From positions 1 to 64,000 of the IMG/VR virus record IMGVR_UViG_3300023174_000064: a DNA stretch of 64,000 nt. The stretch is one strand, 5' to 3'. Of this stretch, positions 1 through 55,063 are shown piece by piece (position 1 is the first letter of the stretch; each line of letters opens with the position of its first letter). A model generated the notes under the pieces. The model was given only the letters and a program-made list of their open reading frames with translations. It ran no database searches and had not been told where the DNA came from. The DNA is from a virus. A program made the translations under genes and the position numbers.

Positions 1-186
1 GATGAACTGTTGCATCACTCGCCACCACCGGGGAGGAAGCCCCTTCCCGGTGAGTCGGAGGGTGATGACGATGCCACCTACGACGACGACGAGTGGCACG
101 ATATGGAGGATGACCGTGACCCGAACAACATGAACCGGGCACACGATTACCTCGCTTCACTTGAGCGTCGTGGTTACTTTACTTGA
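1..186 (+). CDS. Partial (5'-truncated) acidic hypothetical protein
   Basis: Frame +1 open from base 1 to TGA 184-186: ...GESEGDDDATYDDDEWHDMEDDRDPNNMNRAHDYLASLERRGYFT*; GC-rich codon usage like neighbours. Confidence 0.6.
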   Translation, partial: DELLHHSPPPGRKPLPGESEGDDDATYDDDEWHDMEDDRDPNNMNRAHDYLASLERRGYFT

Positions 187-210
187 ACTTTTTTTGAAAG
201 GAGATTGCAC

Positions 211-465
211 ATGAATGCAACTACTACAACTCACTCGTTCACTTCACTCAAGCCCCGCCAGCAGGCGTTCGTTCGATTCCTTGTGGAGCAGGGTGTGAAT
301 CACCCCCTCATCAAGCGAGAGGACTTGCAGATTCACAGCGTGGCTTACGGCCTGGGTTCGCCCCCGGCGTGGATCGTCCGTGACGATTCCCGTCGCACCA
401 AGCGTGCCTATTACGAGATTCCTGAAATTGCGGACTGCATGAACTCCGCTTCAGGCACGGCCTGA
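211..465 (+). CDS. Small hypothetical protein, resembles N-terminal domain seen on T4-like phage MoxR/CobS-type AAA proteins
   Basis: AAGGAG at 198-203 before ATG 211; PPAWIVRDDSRRTKRAYYEIP motif; lies upstream of CobT-like vWA gene. Family link is recollection only. Confidence 0.55.
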   Translation: MNATTTTHSFTSLKPRQQAFVRFLVEQGVNHPLIKREDLQIHSVAYGLGSPPAWIVRDDSRRTKRAYYEIPEIADCMNSASGTA

Positions 466-534
466 CCCCCGTGGACACACTTCACATTTTCATCATGTTT
501 CTTCCTTGATTCGCAAGTGTGTCTCTCGTTTGTC

Positions 535-572
535 ACAGACTCCCGGTTCAGGCCGGGAGTCTGTTTCACTTT
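535..572 (+). terminator. Intrinsic terminator-like hairpin
   Basis: ACAGACTCCCGG-ttcagg-CCGGGAGTCTGT 12-bp stem followed by TTCACTTT. Confidence 0.7.
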
Positions 573-658
573 ATATTGAAATGTATAATATGAAATGTAC
601 ACTTCACATTTCAACCGTTTCAATAACGAAAAAAATCCAAATATCTTGGTCAAGTGGG

Positions 659-687
659 TTGACAGCCCCTGAAATGTGTGGTACAAT
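659..687 (+). promoter_or_regulatory. Sigma70-type early promoter (extended -10), likely leaderless transcript
   Basis: TTGACA 659-664, 17-bp spacer, TGn-TACAAT 682-687, ATG at 694 with no SD. Confidence 0.8.
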
Positions 688-693
688 ACCCTC

Positions 694-3000
694 ATGCTCA
701 ACAACAACAACAAGAACGAAGTGAAGGGCGCAATGCGCCACCAGTCGAACGAGTCTCGTTCGGTGTTCGCTCGCATCATGTCCACCGAAAACATTCAGGT
801 GAACTTTGATCCCAAGAGCAAGGACGCATGGTTCGACACCAAGACCCGCGTGCTGAATATGCCGAACTGGACTGGCATGACGCAGGAGGTGTACGACCTG
901 CTGCTTTCCCACGAGGTGAGCCACGCCCTGCACACCCCTGTCACCGGATGGATCGGCCTGACCGACGAACTGGCTGGCCCCAACGCCAGCGATGCTGACA
1001 AGCAGGTGGCCCAGCAGTACATCAACATTGTTGAGGACGCACGCATTGAGCGAATCATCAAGAGCAAGTACCCCGGCCTCGCTCGTGACTACCGCAAGGG
1101 TTACGACTGGCTGGTGAAGTCCGGTATGTTCGGCAAACTGGACAACGCGGCCATCAGCGAGATGGCGTTCATCGACCGCCTGAACCTGCACTTCAAGGTT
1201 GGTCAGCACACCGAACTCTCCGTGCCGTTCTCTGCCAGCGAGCAGCAGGTGGTGGATATGATTGCGGAAGCCGAATCGTTCGAGGATGTGATGAAGGCAA
1301 CCCGGCTCGTGTGGGATCACGAGAGCAGCACCGATGGCAAGCCGCAGCCCAAGACCGCGAAGGGCAACGGTAGTGGTGCAGGCAACGGTGACGGCAACGG
1401 CAAGCCGCAGGACGGTGACGGTGAACCGCAGGACGGTGAGGCTGATGGCGAAGGCAAGCCAACCAACCAGCCCAGCAAGCAGTTGAACCGGATCGCTCCC
1501 AAGACCACACAGGCCCAGCAGAAGTGGATGGAGAAGCACCGCGAGAAGACTCACTCTTGGCAACGCAACGATGATGCCCCGGTGCGGATGCCGGAGTTCG
1601 ATCTCGCACAGATCATCGTGCCTCACACGCAGATCAACGATCAGATCACCGAAGCCCTGAACTCTTGCACCAAGTGCAAGGACTGGCGGAACCTGATGAC
1701 TGCCGACTACAACACATTCGCGTCGGAAGCGAACGCCACGGTGGATGCAATGGTCAAGACCTTCCTCACCAAGAAGGCAGCCAACGCCCATCACCGTCAG
1801 CAGCAGGCCAAGTCGGGCACGCTGGATATGAACCTGCTGTCCACCTACAAGTGGAACGAGGACTTGTTCAAGCACTTCACCATCAAGCCGAACGGCAAGA
1901 ACCACGGGTTCGTGGTGTTCCTTGACTGGTCGGGTTCGATGGCTGGCGTGATTATGAATGTCGTGAAGCAGATGTACATTCTGACTTCGTTCTTCCGCCG
2001 CATCGGTGTGCCATACGAGGTGTACGCTTTCAGCAGCCACCAGCCAACCGACAAGTACGAAGGTGAGTACAACCACTACTACGGCACAGCGGCTGGCAAC
2101 GAGATGGCTGCCAAGTACGACACCATGCACAAGACCTTCATCACCAACGCGGCTGATGATGTGTGCGAGACTCGTCCGTTTTGGTTGTACCAGTTTGCCA
2201 GCAACACCATGAACACCACGCAGTACAAGACTGCGATGCACAACCTGTTCGCGTTGGGGTTCTACGCAGGCAACGAGGCGAGCCGCAAGAACAATTTGAG
2301 CGTGTACCATCCGGCCATGCCGCATTGGTTGGGCCTTGGTGACACTCCGCTGGATCAGGCTCTGATGGCTGCCAATCAGATCGTGAGCGAGTTCCAGCGT
2401 AAGTACCGTATTCAAATTATGAACACGGTGGTGATCACAGACGGCAGCACTTCCGGTTCACCGCTGCACGATGGCAAGAAGACTTCGGGTGGTAAGTACA
2501 TCACCCCGACCCGCTTGGTGAACAAGCGAACCGGATCGTCCTTCTCGCTGAACAACATCGTGACCACCAATGTGCTGGCCGCCTACCTGCAAGACAACAC
2601 GGGCAGCAACACCATCATGCTGTTTCTTGACCAAGCACAGACTGCCAGCAGCGTTCGTATCCCCGGCTATGCGACTGTTCACCCGAACGGCAAGCAGGAC
2701 GAGAGCCTGAACTCGCATTGGACGAACGAGAACTTCCTGCTGGGCCTGCCCACCCGTGGTTGCGAGTACGACCACAACGGCAACGCCATCCCCAGCAACC
2801 CGAAGGATGCCATCGGGTTCAAGCAGGTGTACGCGATTCGTATTCCTCGCAAGGAAGTGGATGACACCTTTGAGGATATGGACATCGGCAATACTGCGTA
2901 CAGCCGCCTGAAGAACCAGTTCGTGAAGTCTCTCCAGCGGAAGATCGTGAGCCGCAGCCTTGTGAACCGCATGGTGGAGGGCATGGCAAAGCATACATAA
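694..3000 (+). CDS. CobT-like protein: N-terminal HEXXH metallopeptidase-like domain + Gly/acidic linker + vWA (MIDAS) domain
   Basis: LLLSHEVSHALHTP, NIVEDARIER, VFLDWSGSM (DxSxS), GDTPL, VITDG; typical T4-like partner of a MoxR/CobS AAA ATPase; start moved to ATG 694 from promoter spacing. Confidence 0.85.
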   Translation: MLNNNNKNEVKGAMRHQSNESRSVFARIMSTENIQVNFDPKSKDAWFDTKTRVLNMPNWTGMTQEVYDLLLSHEVSHALHTPVTGWIGLTDELAGPNASDADKQVAQQYINIVEDARIERIIKSKYPGLARDYRKGYDWLVKSGMFGKLDNAAISEMAFIDRLNLHFKVGQHTELSVPFSASEQQVVDMIAEAESFEDVMKATRLVWDHESSTDGKPQPKTAKGNGSGAGNGDGNGKPQDGDGEPQDGEADGEGKPTNQPSKQLNRIAPKTTQAQQKWMEKHREKTHSWQRNDDAPVRMPEFDLAQIIVPHTQINDQITEALNSCTKCKDWRNLMTADYNTFASEANATVDAMVKTFLTKKAANAHHRQQQAKSGTLDMNLLSTYKWNEDLFKHFTIKPNGKNHGFVVFLDWSGSMAGVIMNVVKQMYILTSFFRRIGVPYEVYAFSSHQPTDKYEGEYNHYYGTAAGNEMAAKYDTMHKTFITNAADDVCETRPFWLYQFASNTMNTTQYKTAMHNLFALGFYAGNEASRKNNLSVYHPAMPHWLGLGDTPLDQALMAANQIVSEFQRKYRIQIMNTVVITDGSTSGSPLHDGKKTSGGKYITPTRLVNKRTGSSFSLNNIVTTNVLAAYLQDNTGSNTIMLFLDQAQTASSVRIPGYATVHPNGKQDESLNSHWTNENFLLGLPTRGCEYDHNGNAIPSNPKDAIGFKQVYAIRIPRKEVDDTFEDMDIGNTAYSRLKNQFVKSLQRKIVSRSLVNRMVEGMAKHT

Positions 3001-3015
3001 TATGGAGGGATTCAG

Positions 3016-3627
3016 ATGGGCAGACTGAAACCTGAAATAAAACAGTTCGTTGAGCAAGTGAGGACGGAACTCCATTCCTATGGGTTCCGTCTTTGCTTTG
3101 GTAGAGGCAGAACCGTGAACGGTGGTGGCTGGCGTTCAATGGGATTCTTCTGCGACCGGGAGCGAGTGGTCAAGGTGGCCCGTGGCCGTCCTGACTGGCT
3201 GGACATCCTGATCCACGAGTACGCTCACTTCCGCCAATGGGTGGAGCAGCCTGCTGGCGTGTACAACGCGGACGCGAGAGCCAGCATCGTGGTGGCCGAC
3301 TACCTGCACCGTGGCAAGACCCCGGAGCCTGCCGTGCTTCGCAGAGCGTTCACCCGTGTCATGGCGTTTGAACGGGACGCAGAGATGCGAGCCGTAGCCG
3401 TTGCGAAAGCCTGGAGCCTGCCTGTGGACTACGCCGCCTATGCCCGGTTTGCGAATCTTTACATTTATTCTCACCACCTGATGCGAGACACCGGACGCTG
3501 GCAAGCCACCGGTAACCCGTACCGGTCGTGGCGACTGGTGGACATGATGCCTGCCGACTTCAAGACTCGCAGCCACGAGTCCATCCCGGCTCCGGTGTAC
3601 GCTGCGCTTGCCCGGTTCTACCGCTGA
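3016..3627 (+). CDS. HEXXH zinc-metallopeptidase-like protein
   Basis: ILIHEYAHFRQW plus downstream FERDAE; GGAGG SD upstream. Confidence 0.7.
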   Translation: MGRLKPEIKQFVEQVRTELHSYGFRLCFGRGRTVNGGGWRSMGFFCDRERVVKVARGRPDWLDILIHEYAHFRQWVEQPAGVYNADARASIVVADYLHRGKTPEPAVLRRAFTRVMAFERDAEMRAVAVAKAWSLPVDYAAYARFANLYIYSHHLMRDTGRWQATGNPYRSWRLVDMMPADFKTRSHESIPAPVYAALARFYR

Positions 3628-3676
3628 CCGTCCGATAAGCGGAAAGTTGATAGTACAGGATTATCGGACATTCCAT

Positions 3677-3704
3677 TTGCTTGTCCGATAATACCGGGTA
3701 TACT
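3677..3704 (+). promoter_or_regulatory. Sigma70-type promoter overlapped by 11-bp inverted repeat
   Basis: TTGCTT 3677-3682, 16 bp, TATACT 3699-3704, ATG 3713; ATTATCGGACA (3660-3670)/TGTCCGATAAT (3682-3692). Confidence 0.55.
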
Positions 3705-3712
3705 GTCCTATA

Positions 3713-4156
3713 ATGCCTGTCAAGTACCACACACCACACAAGCGACACCGGATGACCTACTTCATCCGAAATGCCGTGGACTGTTGCCGAAAGGGAAACA
3801 ACAGGCAGGTGGCAATGCTGCTGGATGAAATATACTTGGAAAACTTATGGGCCTCCCAGAGAGGGCGGTGTGCGTACTCTCGCCGACCTATGTACTTGCC
3901 CACGGTTCCCACTTCTGGTGGTAGAAATGTACAGTTTGCCAAAGGCATCAACATGGCGTATGCCGCCAGCATTGACCGGATCGACTCTAATGAAGGGTAT
4001 ATTCCGGGGAATGTGCATTTTGTTTGCCGTTTCATCAATATGGGAAAGCAAGGATTGTCTGACGCACAGGTGCGCGAGTTTCTTGCGGATGTGGTTGCCA
4101 AGTGGAGTGTTCCGATGGACGACCTGATCGGACTGGAACCGAACCTTGAAAGTTGA
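3713..4156 (+). CDS. HNH-like (beta-beta-alpha-metal) homing-endonuclease-type protein
   Basis: QRGRCAYS...ASIDRIDSNEGYIPGNVHFVCRFINMGK, the SIDRID...GY..GNV..C...N..K signature. Confidence 0.75.
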   Translation: MPVKYHTPHKRHRMTYFIRNAVDCCRKGNNRQVAMLLDEIYLENLWASQRGRCAYSRRPMYLPTVPTSGGRNVQFAKGINMAYAASIDRIDSNEGYIPGNVHFVCRFINMGKQGLSDAQVREFLADVVAKWSVPMDDLIGLEPNLES

Positions 4157-4709: not shown

Positions 4710-5621
4710 TTAACTTATATCACCCATAATTCTCAGGTGATGTCTCTCTATATTTTCCAGGTATTTCTTTACCATTTCAAATTCATCTGGTTTTTTAGAA
4801 CCTTTACCGTGCTGCATCAATGCTGCTGACAATGCATTTTCGTGTGCGTGTGTTAATCGGTCAGCAACACTTGGAGGAGGCTCTTCGTTTGATGTACCTG
4901 CTGCTCTTTGTGCTTCTAGTTCCCTGTAATAGTCTGGAGTTTCTTCAGGAGTTTCTCTGGCGTGTCTTGGAATCTCAGTATTCTCTTTTAGTTTGTTGTA
5001 AAAGTACGAAGTTGTATTATAAGATTCGTTAATTGCATCATAATACGGATTGCCAGCTAGCATTTTGTGTCTATTCTCTAGTGAACGTCCAGTTGCGTAC
5101 CCACGTATACCTTGTTCCATATGTTTTCTGTACTCTTTCGGATCAACACCTTTAGGTGCAGGATACACATCAATTAAATCACTGGCTGCATCTGCTATAT
5201 CGTCGTATGAATTTTCTATTCTACCTTTTAATGTTTTACGCATTTGCTTTGTGGAATGACCGTGTTGTTTGTGAAGACCTGTTTCTTCCACCCAATCGTG
5301 TACTGCATTAGAAATTCTCTTTCCCATTTCTTCGCGCTCTGCTTCTAGATCTCGTGGACCACCTGGTTGTCCTGGTCTTGGATCGTCTGGTTGTGGATTG
5401 TATTGATAACCTGGATCTCTATTATAATATTCATTCATTTGACCAGCTTCTCGTTTGCCTTCTTCACGCATCTTGCGCTTGCCTGATCCAGACTTGGTGC
5501 CTTTGCTCCAACTCTTTGGGCGTTGCTTTTGTTTAGGACCACGACGAGCAAACTTGGCGGCTTCCATAAAGTTTTGGACAACGTTTTCTTTTACAACCTT
5601 TTTAATATTTTCCATATCCAT
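4710..5621 (-). CDS. Hypothetical late protein, probable head-internal protein
   Basis: Late promoter TATAAATA at 5653-5660 (minus) and AAGGA SD; segments delimited by VKE/FME/MNE/INE/LKE. Confidence 0.7.
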   Translation of the reverse strand: MDMENIKKVVKENVVQNFMEAAKFARRGPKQKQRPKSWSKGTKSGSGKRKMREEGKREAGQMNEYYNRDPGYQYNPQPDDPRPGQPGGPRDLEAEREEMGKRISNAVHDWVEETGLHKQHGHSTKQMRKTLKGRIENSYDDIADAASDLIDVYPAPKGVDPKEYRKHMEQGIRGYATGRSLENRHKMLAGNPYYDAINESYNTTSYFYNKLKENTEIPRHARETPEETPDYYRELEAQRAAGTSNEEPPPSVADRLTHAHENALSAALMQHGKGSKKPDEFEMVKKYLENIERHHLRIMGDIS

Positions 5622-5659
5622 TGTAGGGTTCCTTGCTATATAATCTTACCTGTATTTAT

Positions 5660-5694
5660 AAAAAAAGCAAGGGAGAGCGTGAACTCTCCCCTGC
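5660..5694 (-). terminator. Intrinsic terminator ending the small RNA
   Basis: GCAGGGGAGAG-ttcacg-CTCTCCCTTGC-TTTTTTT on minus strand. Confidence 0.85.
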
Positions 5695-5789
5695 CTCTAT
5701 GACGATCGAAAGGTAGCGAAGTTCCTTTTAAAGCATGAATGGCGTAGTTCGCGTGAAGGACTGTCTACGACCAACTCAGCCCGATCACC
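5660..5789 (-). ncRNA. Unassigned structured small RNA (~125 nt) with own late promoter and terminator
   Basis: ATAAATA 5792-5798 (minus); closing stem 5781-5789/5701-5709; long stem 5765-5780/5733-5747; loop GCGAA complementary to UUCGC; terminator 5660-5694; no ORF. Confidence 0.7.
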
Positions 5790-5817
5790 TTTATTTATGG
5801 AAAATATGATTTCTAAT

Positions 5818-5845
5818 TTGCATTTTTTTCTTTTGGGTGTATATT
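5818..5845 (+). promoter_or_regulatory. Sigma70-type promoter, leaderless
   Basis: TTGCAT 5818-5823, 16 bp, TATATT 5840-5845, ATG 5852 after 6 nt, no SD; poly-T tract in spacer. Confidence 0.6.
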
Positions 5846-5851
5846 AAACAT

Positions 5852-6424
5852 ATGATTCTTACTCCTACAATTACCATCGATAATAACAATCTCGCCTCTT
5901 TTAACAAGGAAATCAAGCAATTTGATCGCACTCCTGGTACTGTTACCAAGCACTGGGGTGATCGTGATCTGGACGGTCTGAGTATTGAAATGAAGCAGGT
6001 TCGTACACCACAAGGAAACGGTGTGCTGATTATGGCTACCGATAATAACGGTGATGTGGTGCTGACTGCACGTCTGATTACCGCACCTGTTCCACAAGGT
6101 GGATTCCAGTGGGGCCGCAAGGTGTACGTGGTTGATCGGATTCGTGTACACAACGATTACGTGGGTCAGGGTGTTGCTCCCGGTATGTACCGTTGGCTGT
6201 CGGATCGCGGGTATACCCTGATTTCAGACTCGCATCAAACGCCAGTTTCGCTGGCAGTGTGGCGTAAGTTGGGCACGGCTGGTGGTGTGTTCACTGTGAA
6301 CCTGACTGACGGTGTTTGGCGAGCGTATAATCCGTTAAATGTGGAAGATTGGGTGTTGTTTGGAAATAATGATGGAAGCCGTTACTGGCCGATCCGATTC
6401 TTGTTGCCTGCAACCACCAAGTAA
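5852..6424 (+). CDS. GNAT-fold acetyltransferase-like protein
   Basis: VDRIRVHNDYVGQGVAPGMY (V...Y.GQG.A acetyl-CoA motif A) and SDSHQTPVSLAVWRKL. Confidence 0.7.
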   Translation: MILTPTITIDNNNLASFNKEIKQFDRTPGTVTKHWGDRDLDGLSIEMKQVRTPQGNGVLIMATDNNGDVVLTARLITAPVPQGGFQWGRKVYVVDRIRVHNDYVGQGVAPGMYRWLSDRGYTLISDSHQTPVSLAVWRKLGTAGGVFTVNLTDGVWRAYNPLNVEDWVLFGNNDGSRYWPIRFLLPATTK

Positions 6425-6496: not shown

Positions 6497-8287
6497 ATGA
6501 GAATTAAACTATTAAACGAAGGTGTAGTAGACTCTGCAAGCCGAAGTGTAGAAGGCAAACCGTCTTACGGTTGGGGTGCTGCTGGTTTAGGTATGATACC
6601 AGATGCTATTGATCCGGTTCAAAGACTAATACAAGGCGGAAAAACATACGAAGATGGTATGTTTCGTTCTTATGATGCAATAGCCGGAAAACAATTTAAA
6701 GACGAACAAGGTAAAACGAGACAAGTTTCTCCCACTCAATCCGATCCTTATTTAAAACAAAAAGATCTGGCCACAGTTGCATTAACTGCAGGTGGTGCTG
6801 TTGAAGGTGTTGCCGATCTACTTGGAAAAAGCGAAAATTCAATAAGCAAATGGATTGCTCATCCTGCTTTAATAGGAGGTATTGGTGTTAAAGATGCATT
6901 TGAAACCGCTAATCAGTTAAGACAAGCAAAAGAATTATGGAATGCAGGAAAAACAACAGAAGCAAAACGTAAAGCGTTAGAAACAATAGAACCTGCCACT
7001 ATAAGTGCTGCTTCTTTGGCGGCACTTGGATCACATTATCTTCCTAGTATTATTCCAGCAACTCCTGCCACCACAGGTACATTTGCCAGAAGTTTGGGTG
7101 GTGCTGTTACAGGACTCACAAATAAATTGGATAAACTTGCCACAGAATACGAGAATGAAGGAATGGAAGGTGTTGAGAAGGCATTAGATACAATGGATTG
7201 GCATGATGCAACAGCCGCTGCATGGGGGGCTGCTGGTCCTGCCATGGATTGGGCTCTTCGAAAACAATTAACTGGAAAAATGGCATCCAAAGCACTACCT
7301 TTTGGAGTAGGAATGATTCCTTCTGCGTTATTTGCAGGAAAACAGTTAGGACATGGGATTATGGATGCATCAAGTGGTAACTTGGAACTTGCATTAAAAA
7401 GAGGAGCATTGGGTGTTGGTGAATTAGTATCAGGATTGGGTTATGCTACTGGAGGTGGAGCTGCTGCAGGAGCTGCTGCCGATGTAGGTATTGCTTTAAA
7501 ACAACAACAACTAGAAAAAGAAGAAGAAGAAATGGATGCTGAAGAATACAGAAAACAAGCGGAAAAAGATACAGAAGCAAGATTAAAACGAGCTGCTGAA
7601 CAACGTAAAGAAAGACTACAACCAGTTTTTGAACAATTCAGAGCAAGAGAACGAGAGAGAGAACGAGAAAAAGATAAAGGTGGAGAACGATTAAGTGATG
7701 CAGAACGTGCCGCTCGTGACGCTCCAGAAGTAAAACCAGAAAAACCAAAAGAACAAGAAACAGAAAAACCAAAAGAACAAGAAACAGAAAAACCAAAAGA
7801 AAAAGAAACAGAAAAAAAACCAGGATTTTGGAGTAGAATATTAAAAGGGCTTGGTATTGCAACTACTGGTGCTGTAGCCGGTGTTGTTGCTGGTGCTAAT
7901 GATGATGCTGATAAAACCGATAAAATTACACCATCAAAGTATTTTGATCCAACCAGAGAAGAAATTGCAGGTAATGAGACTTTAGTTGCTTCTGCAAAAA
8001 CACCACAATTTGATTGGTATAGAAATCAATGGTACACAATGCCAACCAGAATTATGAGTTCTACTATTATCAATGAAGGAAAACTAACTCCTAAAGAGTC
8101 TTTACAACGTAAGTTAAAGAAACAGCGGTATAAGGTTTCTTACGTTCAAGACGGTAAAAAAGTGGAAGTGTTTGCTTCTTCTATTCGTGGTGTTCGCCGA
8201 GTTGTGTATGGAAAGAAACAGTATAAAGTTCACAATTCAACTGGATCTGACGTGACCGGTTACTTTAAGAAACTGCTTGGTAGATAA
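6497..8287 (+). CDS. Ala/Gly-rich putative head-internal (ejected) protein with membrane-type helices
   Basis: ATAAATA 6472-6478 + AAGGA SD; MRIKLLNE start; Gly/Ala hydrophobic helices, KPKEQETE repeats, INE before basic C-terminal domain. Confidence 0.6.
   Translation: MRIKLLNEGVVDSASRSVEGKPSYGWGAAGLGMIPDAIDPVQRLIQGGKTYEDGMFRSYDAIAGKQFKDEQGKTRQVSPTQSDPYLKQKDLATVALTAGGAVEGVADLLGKSENSISKWIAHPALIGGIGVKDAFETANQLRQAKELWNAGKTTEAKRKALETIEPATISAASLAALGSHYLPSIIPATPATTGTFARSLGGAVTGLTNKLDKLATEYENEGMEGVEKALDTMDWHDATAAAWGAAGPAMDWALRKQLTGKMASKALPFGVGMIPSALFAGKQLGHGIMDASSGNLELALKRGALGVGELVSGLGYATGGGAAAGAAADVGIALKQQQLEKEEEEMDAEEYRKQAEKDTEARLKRAAEQRKERLQPVFEQFRAREREREREKDKGGERLSDAERAARDAPEVKPEKPKEQETEKPKEQETEKPKEKETEKKPGFWSRILKGLGIATTGAVAGVVAGANDDADKTDKITPSKYFDPTREEIAGNETLVASAKTPQFDWYRNQWYTMPTRIMSSTIINEGKLTPKESLQRKLKKQRYKVSYVQDGKKVEVFASSIRGVRRVVYGKKQYKVHNSTGSDVTGYFKKLLGR
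7739..7810 (+). repeat. In-frame 24-bp tandem repeat x3 (EKPKEQET)
   Basis: GAAAAACCAAAAGAACAAGAAACA units. Confidence 0.9.
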
Positions 8288-54406: not shown

Positions 54407-55063
54407 TTAAATTTTCTTATTAATAAAAAGAGCATCACCGGCCAAATATGGGGTATATGGTTTATCTGTAGGATCTTCGTAATATTCTGCCATTTCAAAA
54501 CCAAATTCTCGTAAAACGGAAGATATATCTTGAAGTGTCGGACTACCAGGACGCCAATTTTTATCTATAACAACTTCAGTTATTATGTATTTTGTATTAT
54601 TTAATATTTTTTGATTCTTGAATGCTTCGTATTCTGCTCCTTCAATATCAGAGCAAATTAAATCTATTGTTTTAATATTTCTAATATCACATTCATAATC
54701 TAGTGTAGTGGTTTCTATTTGTTGCTTTATAGTTGGTAAATATTTGTGTTTGTAGATTGAAGAACTTCCTAATATTTCTGGACTATTTGAATCTATAGAC
54801 CAATAATCAACATGACCTCTGCTCGAATATAATGCTTTAGGAACAAATTCAATTTTTGTATTGTTTTTAAGTTTATTAATTTTTTCCTGACAAATAGATA
54901 TTAGCTGTGGATTACATTCAAAAGATATAAATGTATTTGGTTCATAATAAGAAATAATAGGTTCTATAAAAGAAGCATCATTAGTACCCAATTCAAAAAT
55001 AGTATTTATTTTTTCTTTTGAAATGTGTTTTGTAAATTGTTCAAATAAATATGGTATGTTCAC
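54407..55063 (-). CDS. FkbM-family methyltransferase
   Basis: FELGTN, FECNP, TTLD, DIEGAEY, GDALF. Confidence 0.85.
   Translation of the reverse strand: MNIPYLFEQFTKHISKEKINTIFELGTNDASFIEPIISYYEPNTFISFECNPQLISICQEKINKLKNNTKIEFVPKALYSSRGHVDYWSIDSNSPEILGSSSIYKHKYLPTIKQQIETTTLDYECDIRNIKTIDLICSDIEGAEYEAFKNQKILNNTKYIITEVVIDKNWRPGSPTLQDISSVLREFGFEMAEYYEDPTDKPYTPYLAGDALFINKKI

What the first reader, a model, noticed from the sequence alone, without database searches (positions are those of the whole stretch)
5660..5798. Stand-alone late-expressed structured RNA with three-way junction and complementary loops
Seen (minus strand): ATAAATA box, then GGUGAUCGG pairing with UCGAUCGUC (P1), a long bulged stem GCUGAGUUGGUCGUAG/CUACGCCAUUCAUGC (P2) with loop ACAGUCCUUCACGCGAA, a short stem AAGG/CCUU (P3) with loop AACUUCGCUA, then a strong terminator. 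Loop GCGAA is the exact complement of loop UUCGC. An alternative pairing GUCCUU/AAGGAAC competes with P3, suggesting a switch or double pseudoknot. The segment is GC-richer than its flanks and has no ORF, and the next gene has its own late promoter. Inference: a trans-acting phage RNA; the 3WJ plus hand-in-hand loops is reminiscent of phi29 pRNA or the SRP Alu domain, but I cannot assign it to a family.
Basis: partly seen in the sequence, partly recalled or inferred. Interest (0 to 1): 0.82.

Follow-up and report, generated by a model that had tools for sequence, protein, structure and literature searches.

The report
Phage small RNA antisense to 23S rRNA
This is a real stand-alone small RNA gene of an uncultured T4-like lake phage, and its transcript is the reverse complement of a core part of bacterial 23S ribosomal RNA, so the phage probably pairs an RNA directly with its host's large ribosomal RNA, which I found described in no paper.

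Summary
That covers the ATAAATA box, stems P1-P3, the GCGAA/UUCGC loops, the strong terminator, the absence of an ORF, and the next gene's own TATAAATA.

The key point was missed. The non-transcribed strand is a shortened copy of 23S rRNA domain IV (E. coli 1913-2008), so the RNA is antisense to it. It covers the helix 69 loop and 3' strand and the junction strands on both sides of helix 71, and it skips helix 71.

Three diagnostic bases are of the Planctomycetota type.

I collected 92 distinct relatives from lake and ocean phage contigs:
- 66 have an NTAAATA box.
- 90 have a clear terminator-like hairpin and T-run, with 64 different stems.
- P1 covaries.
- The anti-rRNA blocks are the conserved parts.
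- Some subtypes match variable rRNA stretches of particular Planctomycetota exactly, over 20-30 nt.

There is no Rfam match, no match in cultured phages, and no paper.

The likeness to phi29 pRNA or the SRP Alu domain and the proposed switch are not supported. The 3WJ core alone folds no better than shuffled sequence.

The most likely mechanism is base pairing with host 23S rRNA at the subunit interface. This is inferred and untested.

Other agents of this scan reported the same kind of RNA in other phage genomes.

The parts
5792..5799 (-). T4-type late-promoter box CATAAATA. The transcription start is inferred near 5786, at the G of GAUCGGG.
   Evidence: Sequence. ATAAATA is about 6-fold enriched in intergenic DNA, and 24 of 29 such sites precede same-strand genes. 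66 of 92 relatives have NTAAATA, and P1 starts within 9 nt of the box in 49 of those 66. The three bases before GAUCGGG vary and pair poorly in type A.
5780..5789 (-). P1 5' strand (GGUGAUCGGG). It closes the RNA by pairing with the anti-helix-69 segment. It is not derived from rRNA antisense.
   Evidence: Covariation across the family: column -2 has G-C 53, U-A 5, C-G 1; column +1 has A-U 32, G-C 42, G-U 5. A sequence's own 5' and 3' strands pair better than cross-pairings in 51 of 53 cases. Pairing is better on the RNA strand than on the opposite strand in 34 cases against 5.
5759..5781 (-). Block antisense to 23S about 1989-2008 (GGCUGAGUUGGUCGUAGACAGUC). It forms the 5' strand of P2 and the start of loop L2.
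   Evidence: Alignments to E. coli and Planctomycetota 23S. P2 is paired in all 24 type-A relatives.
5748..5764 (-). Loop L2 (ACAGUCCUUCACGCGAA). Its first part varies among relatives. The GCGAA at 5752-5748 is invariant and complementary to UUCGC in L3.
   Evidence: Predicted mostly unpaired.
5733..5746 (-). Block UACGCCAUUCAUGC, a perfect complement of Planctomycetota-type 23S 1964-1977. It forms the 3' strand of P2.
   Evidence: 14-nt exact match. Conserved in 80-90% of the family. The target is mostly unpaired in the Rfam LSU consensus structure.
5710..5727 (-). Block AAGGAACUUCGCUACCUU, a perfect 18-nt complement of 23S 1927-1944 with G at 1938. It contains the P3 stem and the exposed 10-nt loop AACUUCGCUA.
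   Evidence: The loop has an unpaired probability of about 0.9. A search that did not use this block still found it kept. 15 of 18 target bases are unpaired in the LSU consensus structure.
5697..5707 (-). Block GAUCGUCAUAG, antisense to the helix 69 loop and 3' strand (23S 1914-1924, with G at 1918), with one mismatch in this copy. Most of it is the P1 3' strand.
5661..5697 (-). Intrinsic terminator: a G+C-rich hairpin followed by a U-run.
   Evidence: 90 of 92 relatives have a hairpin and T-run here, with 64 different stems and a mean of -18 kcal/mol.
5653..5660 (-). TATAAATA late promoter of the next gene (4710-5621, minus strand). It abuts the terminator and is not part of the RNA.

Best explanation
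The segment 5786 to about 5661 on the minus strand is a self-contained gene for a roughly 125-nt non-coding RNA. It is transcribed late from a T4-type ATAAATA promoter and ended by an intrinsic terminator.

The RNA is the reverse complement of a shortened 23S rRNA domain IV (E. coli numbering 1913-2008). It covers the helix 69 loop and 3' strand, the junction strands 1927-1944 and 1963-1977 on either side of helix 71, and part of 1989-2008. The helix 71 hairpin itself is left out. Stem P1 closes the molecule, and the 10-nt loop AACUUCGCUA is left exposed.

Most likely the RNA acts in trans by base pairing with the host's 23S rRNA, which by its diagnostic bases is of Planctomycetota type. The target would be nascent rRNA or free 50S subunits. 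Pairing would start from the exposed loop and then open P1 and P2.

This would occupy the region of the subunit interface that forms the bridges to the 30S subunit. The outcome would be blocked 50S maturation or subunit joining, or a duplex open to double-strand-specific RNases.

Shown here: the gene, its strand, its family, its complementarity and the P1 stem. Inferred: binding in the cell and its consequence.
For: **Complementarity to 23S**
- The plus strand aligns to E. coli rrlB 1913-2010 with score 50.5, against 21.4 +/- 2.6 for 200 shuffles and 23.5 for the other orientation.
- Scores against Planctomycetota 23S are higher: 74.5 for the window and 56-87.5 for most other subtype representatives (51 for L039). 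The same sequences score 36.5-58.5 against E. coli.
- The 18-mer with G1938 hit only 23S genes in genome contigs.
- The other two differences from E. coli (G1918, U1967) are also of Planctomycetota type.

**The antisense strand is the transcribed one**
- Promoter box upstream: 66 of 92 relatives.
- Terminator downstream: 90 of 92 relatives.
- G-U pairs favour that strand.

**Family conservation**
- The conserved positions are the rRNA-complementary ones: 1914-1925, 1927-1944 and 1964-1977. Helix 71 is deleted, or replaced by an unrelated covarying hairpin.
- A search anchored on another block still recovered the 18-mer.

**Target accessibility**
- The conserved blocks face rRNA stretches that are unpaired in the Rfam LSU consensus structure. 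The skipped part is the self-paired helix 71.

**Matches to variable rRNA**
- Subtypes match variable rRNA stretches of particular lineages exactly. L185 matches 30 nt of a Phycisphaeraceae 23S. Type D matches 20-23 nt. Type E matches 20 nt.
- The subtypes nevertheless share derived features: P1, loss of helix 71, and CCUUUCG in place of CCUUAGG.

**Energetics**
- Net hybridisation after unfolding both partners is -56.4 kcal/mol with a Planctomycetota 23S fragment and -34.7 with E. coli. Shuffled RNAs give -6.8 +/- 2.9. Helix 71 stays folded in the predicted duplex.

**Precedent**
- Synthetic antisense PNA against helix 69 and other 23S sites inhibits E. coli growth (PMC7038079).
- A MazF toxin cleaves helix 70 (10.1101/432989), which implies that the region can be reached.
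Against: - There is no experimental or clean transcript evidence. Only assembled contigs could be laid on the region, and they show neither strand nor ends.
- In mature 70S ribosomes the target lies at the subunit interface in tertiary contacts, so pairing may need nascent rRNA or free 50S.
- Much of the antisense sequence is sequestered inside the RNA's own stems, P1 and P2. GCGAA may also mask the seed.
- A late-expressed inhibitor of ribosomes would also hit the phage's own late translation.
- The host is unknown. The phage has only 38% G+C. Related contigs carry permuted tmRNA genes, which fit other host phyla as I recall.
- The family's bases opposite 1938 and 1967 are not correlated, so the Planctomycetota bases could reflect ancestry alone.
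- The 19-mer used to collect most relatives biases the apparent conservation of that block.
Confidence: 0.55

Rival explanations
1. A structured RNA with a function of its own, such as a protein-binding scaffold, a decoy or an anti-defence RNA. It arose from a captured, inverted piece of host rDNA, and the complementarity to 23S is ancestry, not mechanism.
For: P1 covaries, and P2 is kept in type A (83). The derived GCGAA element is invariant in types A, B, C, E and F and pairs with the seed. Anti-rRNA segments are largely paired inside the RNA. The bases opposite 1938 and 1967 vary independently.
Against: The conserved unpaired bases are exactly the rRNA-complementary ones. The blocks face rRNA junction strands and skip helix 71. 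Exact 20-30 nt matches to variable rRNA regions of particular lineages are hard to keep without ongoing selection or repeated exchange with host rDNA. The core fold is not unusually stable. No conserved neighbouring protein gene exists.
Confidence: 0.27
2. A cis-acting leader, that is a riboswitch or attenuator built as a three-way junction with kissing loops. It would control read-through of the terminator into the downstream late gene.
For: The layout is promoter, then structured RNA, then terminator, then gene. The architecture looks superficially like a purine riboswitch.
Against: The downstream gene has its own TATAAATA. Downstream genes differ between contigs, and in L012 and L017 the next long ORF is convergent. 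Terminators are strong and their sequences are unrelated. No antiterminator is conserved. There is no Rfam riboswitch hit.
Confidence: 0.05
3. A packaging RNA like phi29 pRNA, or a mimic of the SRP Alu domain.
For: Only the predicted three-way junction and two complementary loops.
Against: No Rfam match to pRNA or SRP families. P3 is absent in some subtypes. The fold is no more stable than shuffles. The rRNA-antisense origin explains the sequence fully.
Confidence: 0.02
4. A functionless remnant of captured host rDNA, or an element that acts as DNA, such as a recombination or homing-site relic.
For: The region 1917-1951 of 23S rDNA is a known hotspot for intron insertion (own knowledge). Insertions after about 1954, in helix 71, were seen in two bacterial 23S genes here.
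Against: The element is conserved in more than 100 contigs with a promoter and terminator. Stem covariation is strand-specific and includes G-U pairs. The element is far better conserved than the spacer next to it.
Confidence: 0.03

Closest known systems
Loop-presenting antisense RNAs and trans-acting base-pairing sRNAs (CopA/CopT of plasmid R1, RNA I/RNA II of ColE1, phage-encoded sRNAs). Named from own knowledge.
   Same: It is a small, discrete, terminator-ended RNA. It has extended complementarity to a target RNA, and part of that complementarity sits in an exposed hairpin loop.
   Different: The target would be ribosomal RNA rather than an mRNA or a replication primer. The complementarity comes in several blocks that skip a target hairpin. 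The RNA is trans-encoded in a virus and the target is in the host.
Synthetic antisense oligomers (PNA) against 23S rRNA helix 69, the peptidyl transferase centre and the sarcin loop (reviewed in PMC7038079).
   Same: They use antisense pairing to functional 23S rRNA sites, helix 69 among them. They inhibit translation or growth.
   Different: They are man-made 10-15-mers that invade mature ribosomes. The present RNA is natural, about 125 nt, folded and of unknown effect.
Phage RNAs antisense to 23S helix 69-71 noted earlier in this scan (e1-5763264, e1-5635382 and others).
   Same: They have the same target region. e1-5763264 describes the same architecture (stand-alone, late, T4-like lake phage, Planctomycetota-type bases).
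   Different: Several of the others are about 60-nt sRNAs with a 5' seed, or elements in 3' UTRs. These are unchecked AI notes, not publications.
phi29 pRNA and the SRP Alu domain
   Same: A predicted three-way junction with two mutually complementary loops.
   Different: There is no sequence or covariance-model match. The phage type, gene context and origin all differ. See the membership tests.

Membership tests
phi29 pRNA (Rfam pRNA family) | Match to the family's covariance model | tested here: not met
   No Rfam family reaches gathering score in the window. At E <= 10 in 5600-5860 the only hit is Termite-leu, 23.5 bits against a cut-off of 51, on the terminator.
   GCGAA and UUCGC never vary in 24 type-A relatives, so there is no covariation to judge. 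The phage is T4-like. Prohead binding cannot be tested here.
SRP RNA Alu domain | Match to SRP covariance models, with the conserved Alu loop-loop pairs | tested here: not met
   No SRP family hit at gathering score or at E <= 10.
Riboswitch or cis-regulatory leader | A conserved association with one downstream gene family, and a terminator-antiterminator alternative | tested here: not met
   Downstream genes differ, and in some loci the next long ORF is convergent. 64 unrelated terminator stems. The next gene has its own promoter.
Bacterial LSU rRNA gene or fragment (RF02541) | Match to the LSU model in the sense orientation as part of an rRNA gene | tested here: not met
   RF02541 finds nothing in the 146-kb phage record at E <= 10. 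The likeness is 92 nt, rearranged, and transcribed from the opposite strand.
Trans-acting antisense RNA | A discrete transcription unit with its own promoter and terminator and no ORF | tested here: met
   Shown by sequence signals only. No transcript mapping was possible.
Trans-acting antisense RNA | Extended complementarity to a defined target, beyond chance | tested here: met
Trans-acting antisense RNA | Demonstrated binding to the target, and an effect on it | not testable with these tools
   Needs bench work, and no cultured host or phage is available. Cultured-phage records gave no match.
Phage anti-23S RNA family (types A-F defined here) | A P1-closed RNA carrying GGAAYUUCGCUACCUU and a UACGC..UCRUG block, with helix 71 skipped, followed by a terminator | tested here: met
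   The window copy is type A. It is 99% identical to L002 and L003 and 86% to L006 and L007, and it aligns with 23 other type-A members.

The most novel reading that the evidence does not exclude
Large aquatic phages carry a natural anti-ribosome RNA. It is a late-made, folded antisense RNA that grips the junction strands around helices 69-71 of the host's 23S rRNA. Its variable blocks are tuned to the host lineage's own rRNA sequence. It would be the first natural RNA known to target rRNA by extended base pairing, whether to stop 50S maturation or subunit joining, to trigger cleavage, or to shield the site from helix-70-cutting toxins. It would also serve as a built-in host barcode, pointing here to Planctomycetota as hosts of T4-like lake phages.
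Probability: 0.5. Interest if true: 0.9.

Novelty: new variant of a known kind. Interest (0 to 1): 0.8.

Why it matters
If the RNA does pair with 23S rRNA, phages would be manipulating the ribosome's RNA core directly with an RNA. That would be a new target class for natural antisense regulation. It would also be a natural counterpart of the synthetic anti-rRNA oligomers being developed as antibacterials.

The family is abundant in lakes and oceans, and its members are short. They could be tested with in-vitro transcribed RNA and purified 50S subunits or domain IV transcripts.

The lineage-specific blocks could also give a new way to predict hosts for uncultured phages, sequence against sequence. 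For this window and its relatives they suggest Planctomycetota.

Tried and rejected
- **Rfam:** no family at gathering score. One spurious low hit on the terminator. Other subtypes gave only tRNAs, tmRNA and manA elsewhere in the loci, plus one true archaeal LSU gene. That gene unmasked L263 and L274 as rRNA, and I removed them.
- **tRNA-like reading:** ARAGORN finds nothing in the window.
- **Cultured phages:** no match to the element. A search with E. coli 23S 1899-2019 returned only host rRNA contamination filed as phage records.
- **E. coli genomes:** no blastn hit at that database size. Direct alignment was needed.
- **Neighbouring genes:** PHROGs and Pfam name none of them usefully in seven contexts.
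- **Expression:** two metatranscriptome runs and two runs probably of DNA hold parts of the stretch, but only as contigs. One RNA-library contig spans 5698-6138, crossing the promoter spacer, which fits DNA carry-over or a relative. This says nothing either way about a discrete transcript.
- **Host check:** the high-G+C gene 3016-3627 was not found in 301 Planctomycetota genomes. This is uninformative.
- **Second rRNA-like element:** none in the 146-kb record. No RNA complementary to the 16S 3' tail in the window.
- **Other ATAAATA sites:** two boxes near 55,000 with no downstream gene lie inside a GTG-start ORF that my crude gene caller missed.
- **Cross-subtype alignment:** MAFFT put the P1 5' strands out of register. 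I therefore counted P1 with my own helix-anchored script, which is fitted to the helix and so leans towards it.
- **Literature:** four full-text searches for a phage RNA complementary to 23S rRNA found nothing relevant.

Full report
**What is there.** On the minus strand the intergenic region 5622-5851 lies between a plus-strand gene (5852-6424) and a minus-strand gene (5621-4710). It holds the following, in order:
- CATAAATA at 5799-5792;
- a 93-nt core;
- a strong hairpin and U-run at 5697-5661;
- directly after it, the TATAAATA of the next gene.

The core has 48% G+C against 20-41% around it. No ORF of 30 aa or more lies within it on the minus strand.

ATAAATA is a genuine promoter-like signal in this 146-kb T4-like phage record. 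Of its 55 sites, 29 lie in the 9% of the DNA that is intergenic. Of those 29, 24 sit 5-70 nt before a same-strand gene. The site at 5792-5798 is one of the few with no gene behind it.

**What it is.** Relatives collected by pattern scans showed a constant 3' block joined to very different 5' halves and terminators. This led me to compare the sequence with 23S rRNA.
- The plus strand aligns to E. coli rrlB 1913-2010. The score is 50.5, against 21.4 +/- 2.6 for 200 shuffles and 23.5 for the opposite orientation.
- So the transcribed strand is antisense to 23S domain IV.
- The three places where the block differs from E. coli (G1918, G1938, U1967) are the bases of Planctomycetota 23S.
- The 18-mer with G1938 occurs in genome contigs only in 23S genes. 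About 100 of the 120 listed are Planctomycetota by title.
- Alignment scores rise from 36.5-58.5 against E. coli to 51-87.5 against Planctomycetota.
- The phage record holds no other rRNA-like piece.

**The family.** Viral and metagenome scans gave 92 distinct members after cleaning. I had removed true rRNA genes, two archaeal LSU genes and chance hits. The members come from lakes and oceans.
- 66 of the 92 have an NTAAATA box. P1 begins within 9 nt of the box in 49 of those 66.
- 90 of the 92 have a strong hairpin and T-run about 40 nt after the core, with 64 different stems.
- Flanking genes differ, and none could be named.
- Several loci sit next to tRNA clusters and a permuted tmRNA gene. 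In this genome the tRNAs are about 107 kb away.
- Subtypes range from near-pure antisense copies (L185, type D) to the compact 67-nt type B. The window copy is type A.

**Structure.**
- **P1 is real.** Its 3' strand is the anti-helix-69 segment. The 5' strand changes with it, for example G-C, U-A and C-G at one column, and A-U 32 against G-C 42 at another. A sequence's own strands pair better than cross-pairings in 51 of 53 cases. G-U pairs favour the transcribed strand in 34 cases against 5.
- **Transcription start.** Within 24 type-A copies, the bases before GAUCGGG vary and pair poorly. This fits a start near 5786.
- **P2 and the loops.** P2 is paired in every type-A copy, with one compensatory change and a few wobble changes. 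GCGAA/UUCGC and most of P3 never vary there.
- **P3** is missing in subtypes such as L219, L218 and L245.
- **The proposed switch** uses the variable L2 loop.
- **Stability.** The core fold alone is not more stable than shuffles, z = -0.86.

**Why pairing with rRNA is the best reading.**
- The positions conserved across the family are the rRNA-complementary ones: 1914-1925, 1927-1944 and 1964-1977. Helix 71 (1945-1961) is deleted. In type D it is replaced by an unrelated hairpin whose stem covaries.
- In the Rfam LSU consensus structure the covered stretches are mostly unpaired junction strands and the helix 69 loop. The skipped part is the self-paired helix 71.
- A search anchored on a different block still recovered the 18-mer seed.
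- Subtypes match variable rRNA stretches of particular Planctomycetota lineages exactly, over 20-30 nt. Yet they share derived features, which points to selection or repeated exchange rather than one old capture.
- Predicted net hybridisation is -56.4 kcal/mol with a Planctomycetota fragment and -34.7 with E. coli. Shuffled RNAs give -6.8 +/- 2.9. Helix 71 stays folded and is looped out of the duplex. The seed loop is unpaired with probability about 0.9.
- Synthetic antisense oligomers against helix 69 inhibit E. coli (PMC7038079). A MazF toxin cuts helix 70 (10.1101/432989). The region is therefore reachable and vulnerable.

**What remains open.**
- No transcript ends, strand or binding could be shown. 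The laid runs were contigs only.
- Much of the antisense sequence is masked in the RNA's own stems.
- The benefit of hitting ribosomes late in infection is unclear.
- The host is unknown. The Planctomycetota bases could be inherited rather than functional, because the bases opposite 1938 and 1967 vary independently.
- The main rival is therefore a structured RNA with its own partner, derived from inverted rDNA.

**Novelty.** Rfam, cultured phage records and four literature searches gave nothing. Earlier AI notes of this scan describe the same kind of RNA in other phage genomes, one with the same architecture and Planctomycetota-type bases. I read the rRNA-related notes after reaching the rRNA reading. 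They agree with it, but they are not independent evidence.

Noticed in passing
window 1-4000: A high-G+C island (54-62% in most 400-nt bins, against 30-40% further on) holds a CobT-like peptidase gene (676-3000, phrog_459) and unnamed genes. The peptidase's nearest cultured relatives are cyanomyoviruses, at only about 28% identity.
   Followed up: partly
L014:5262-5612 and L033:1705-2059; tRNAs in L012, L014, L017, L033, L169, L218: Several contigs that carry the anti-23S RNA have it within a few kb of a tRNA cluster and a permuted tmRNA gene. L012 also has a manA RNA at 7843-8046. This hints at an island of translation-related RNA genes.
   Followed up: partly
L130 and L148 (bacterial 23S genes), L290 (viral contig): The 23S sequence is interrupted in helix 71 (after about position 1954 in L130 and L148) by unrelated sequence, probably introns. 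This is inside the stretch that the phage RNAs skip.
   Followed up: no
Type D relatives, e.g. L012, L020, L294, L295, L208: The hairpin that replaces anti-helix-71 has a covarying stem. Its loop keeps a short AUC-containing motif (UAUCUA, UAUCAG, AAUCUA), which suggests a separate contact.
   Followed up: no
Type B relatives (L014, L016, L019, L028, L039, L040): The short 67-nt subtype sits before an ORF with a similar N-terminus (starting like MGFHEK..YPVV). In several loci it also sits after a large divergent ORF (L019, L039, L040). Where tested (L016, L019, L040), these ORFs match no PHROG or Pfam family.
   Followed up: partly
'phages' collection, e.g. PQ800148.1, KM209255.1, OR844775.1: Short records filed as phages are plain host 23S rRNA, in other words contamination. 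They can mislead searches for rRNA-like phage sequences.
   Followed up: no
window 4710-5621 (-) and 5852-6424 (+): Both genes flanking the RNA match no named family. The 190-aa plus-strand protein is 97-98% identical in two other contigs, while the spacer next to it diverges.
   Followed up: partly
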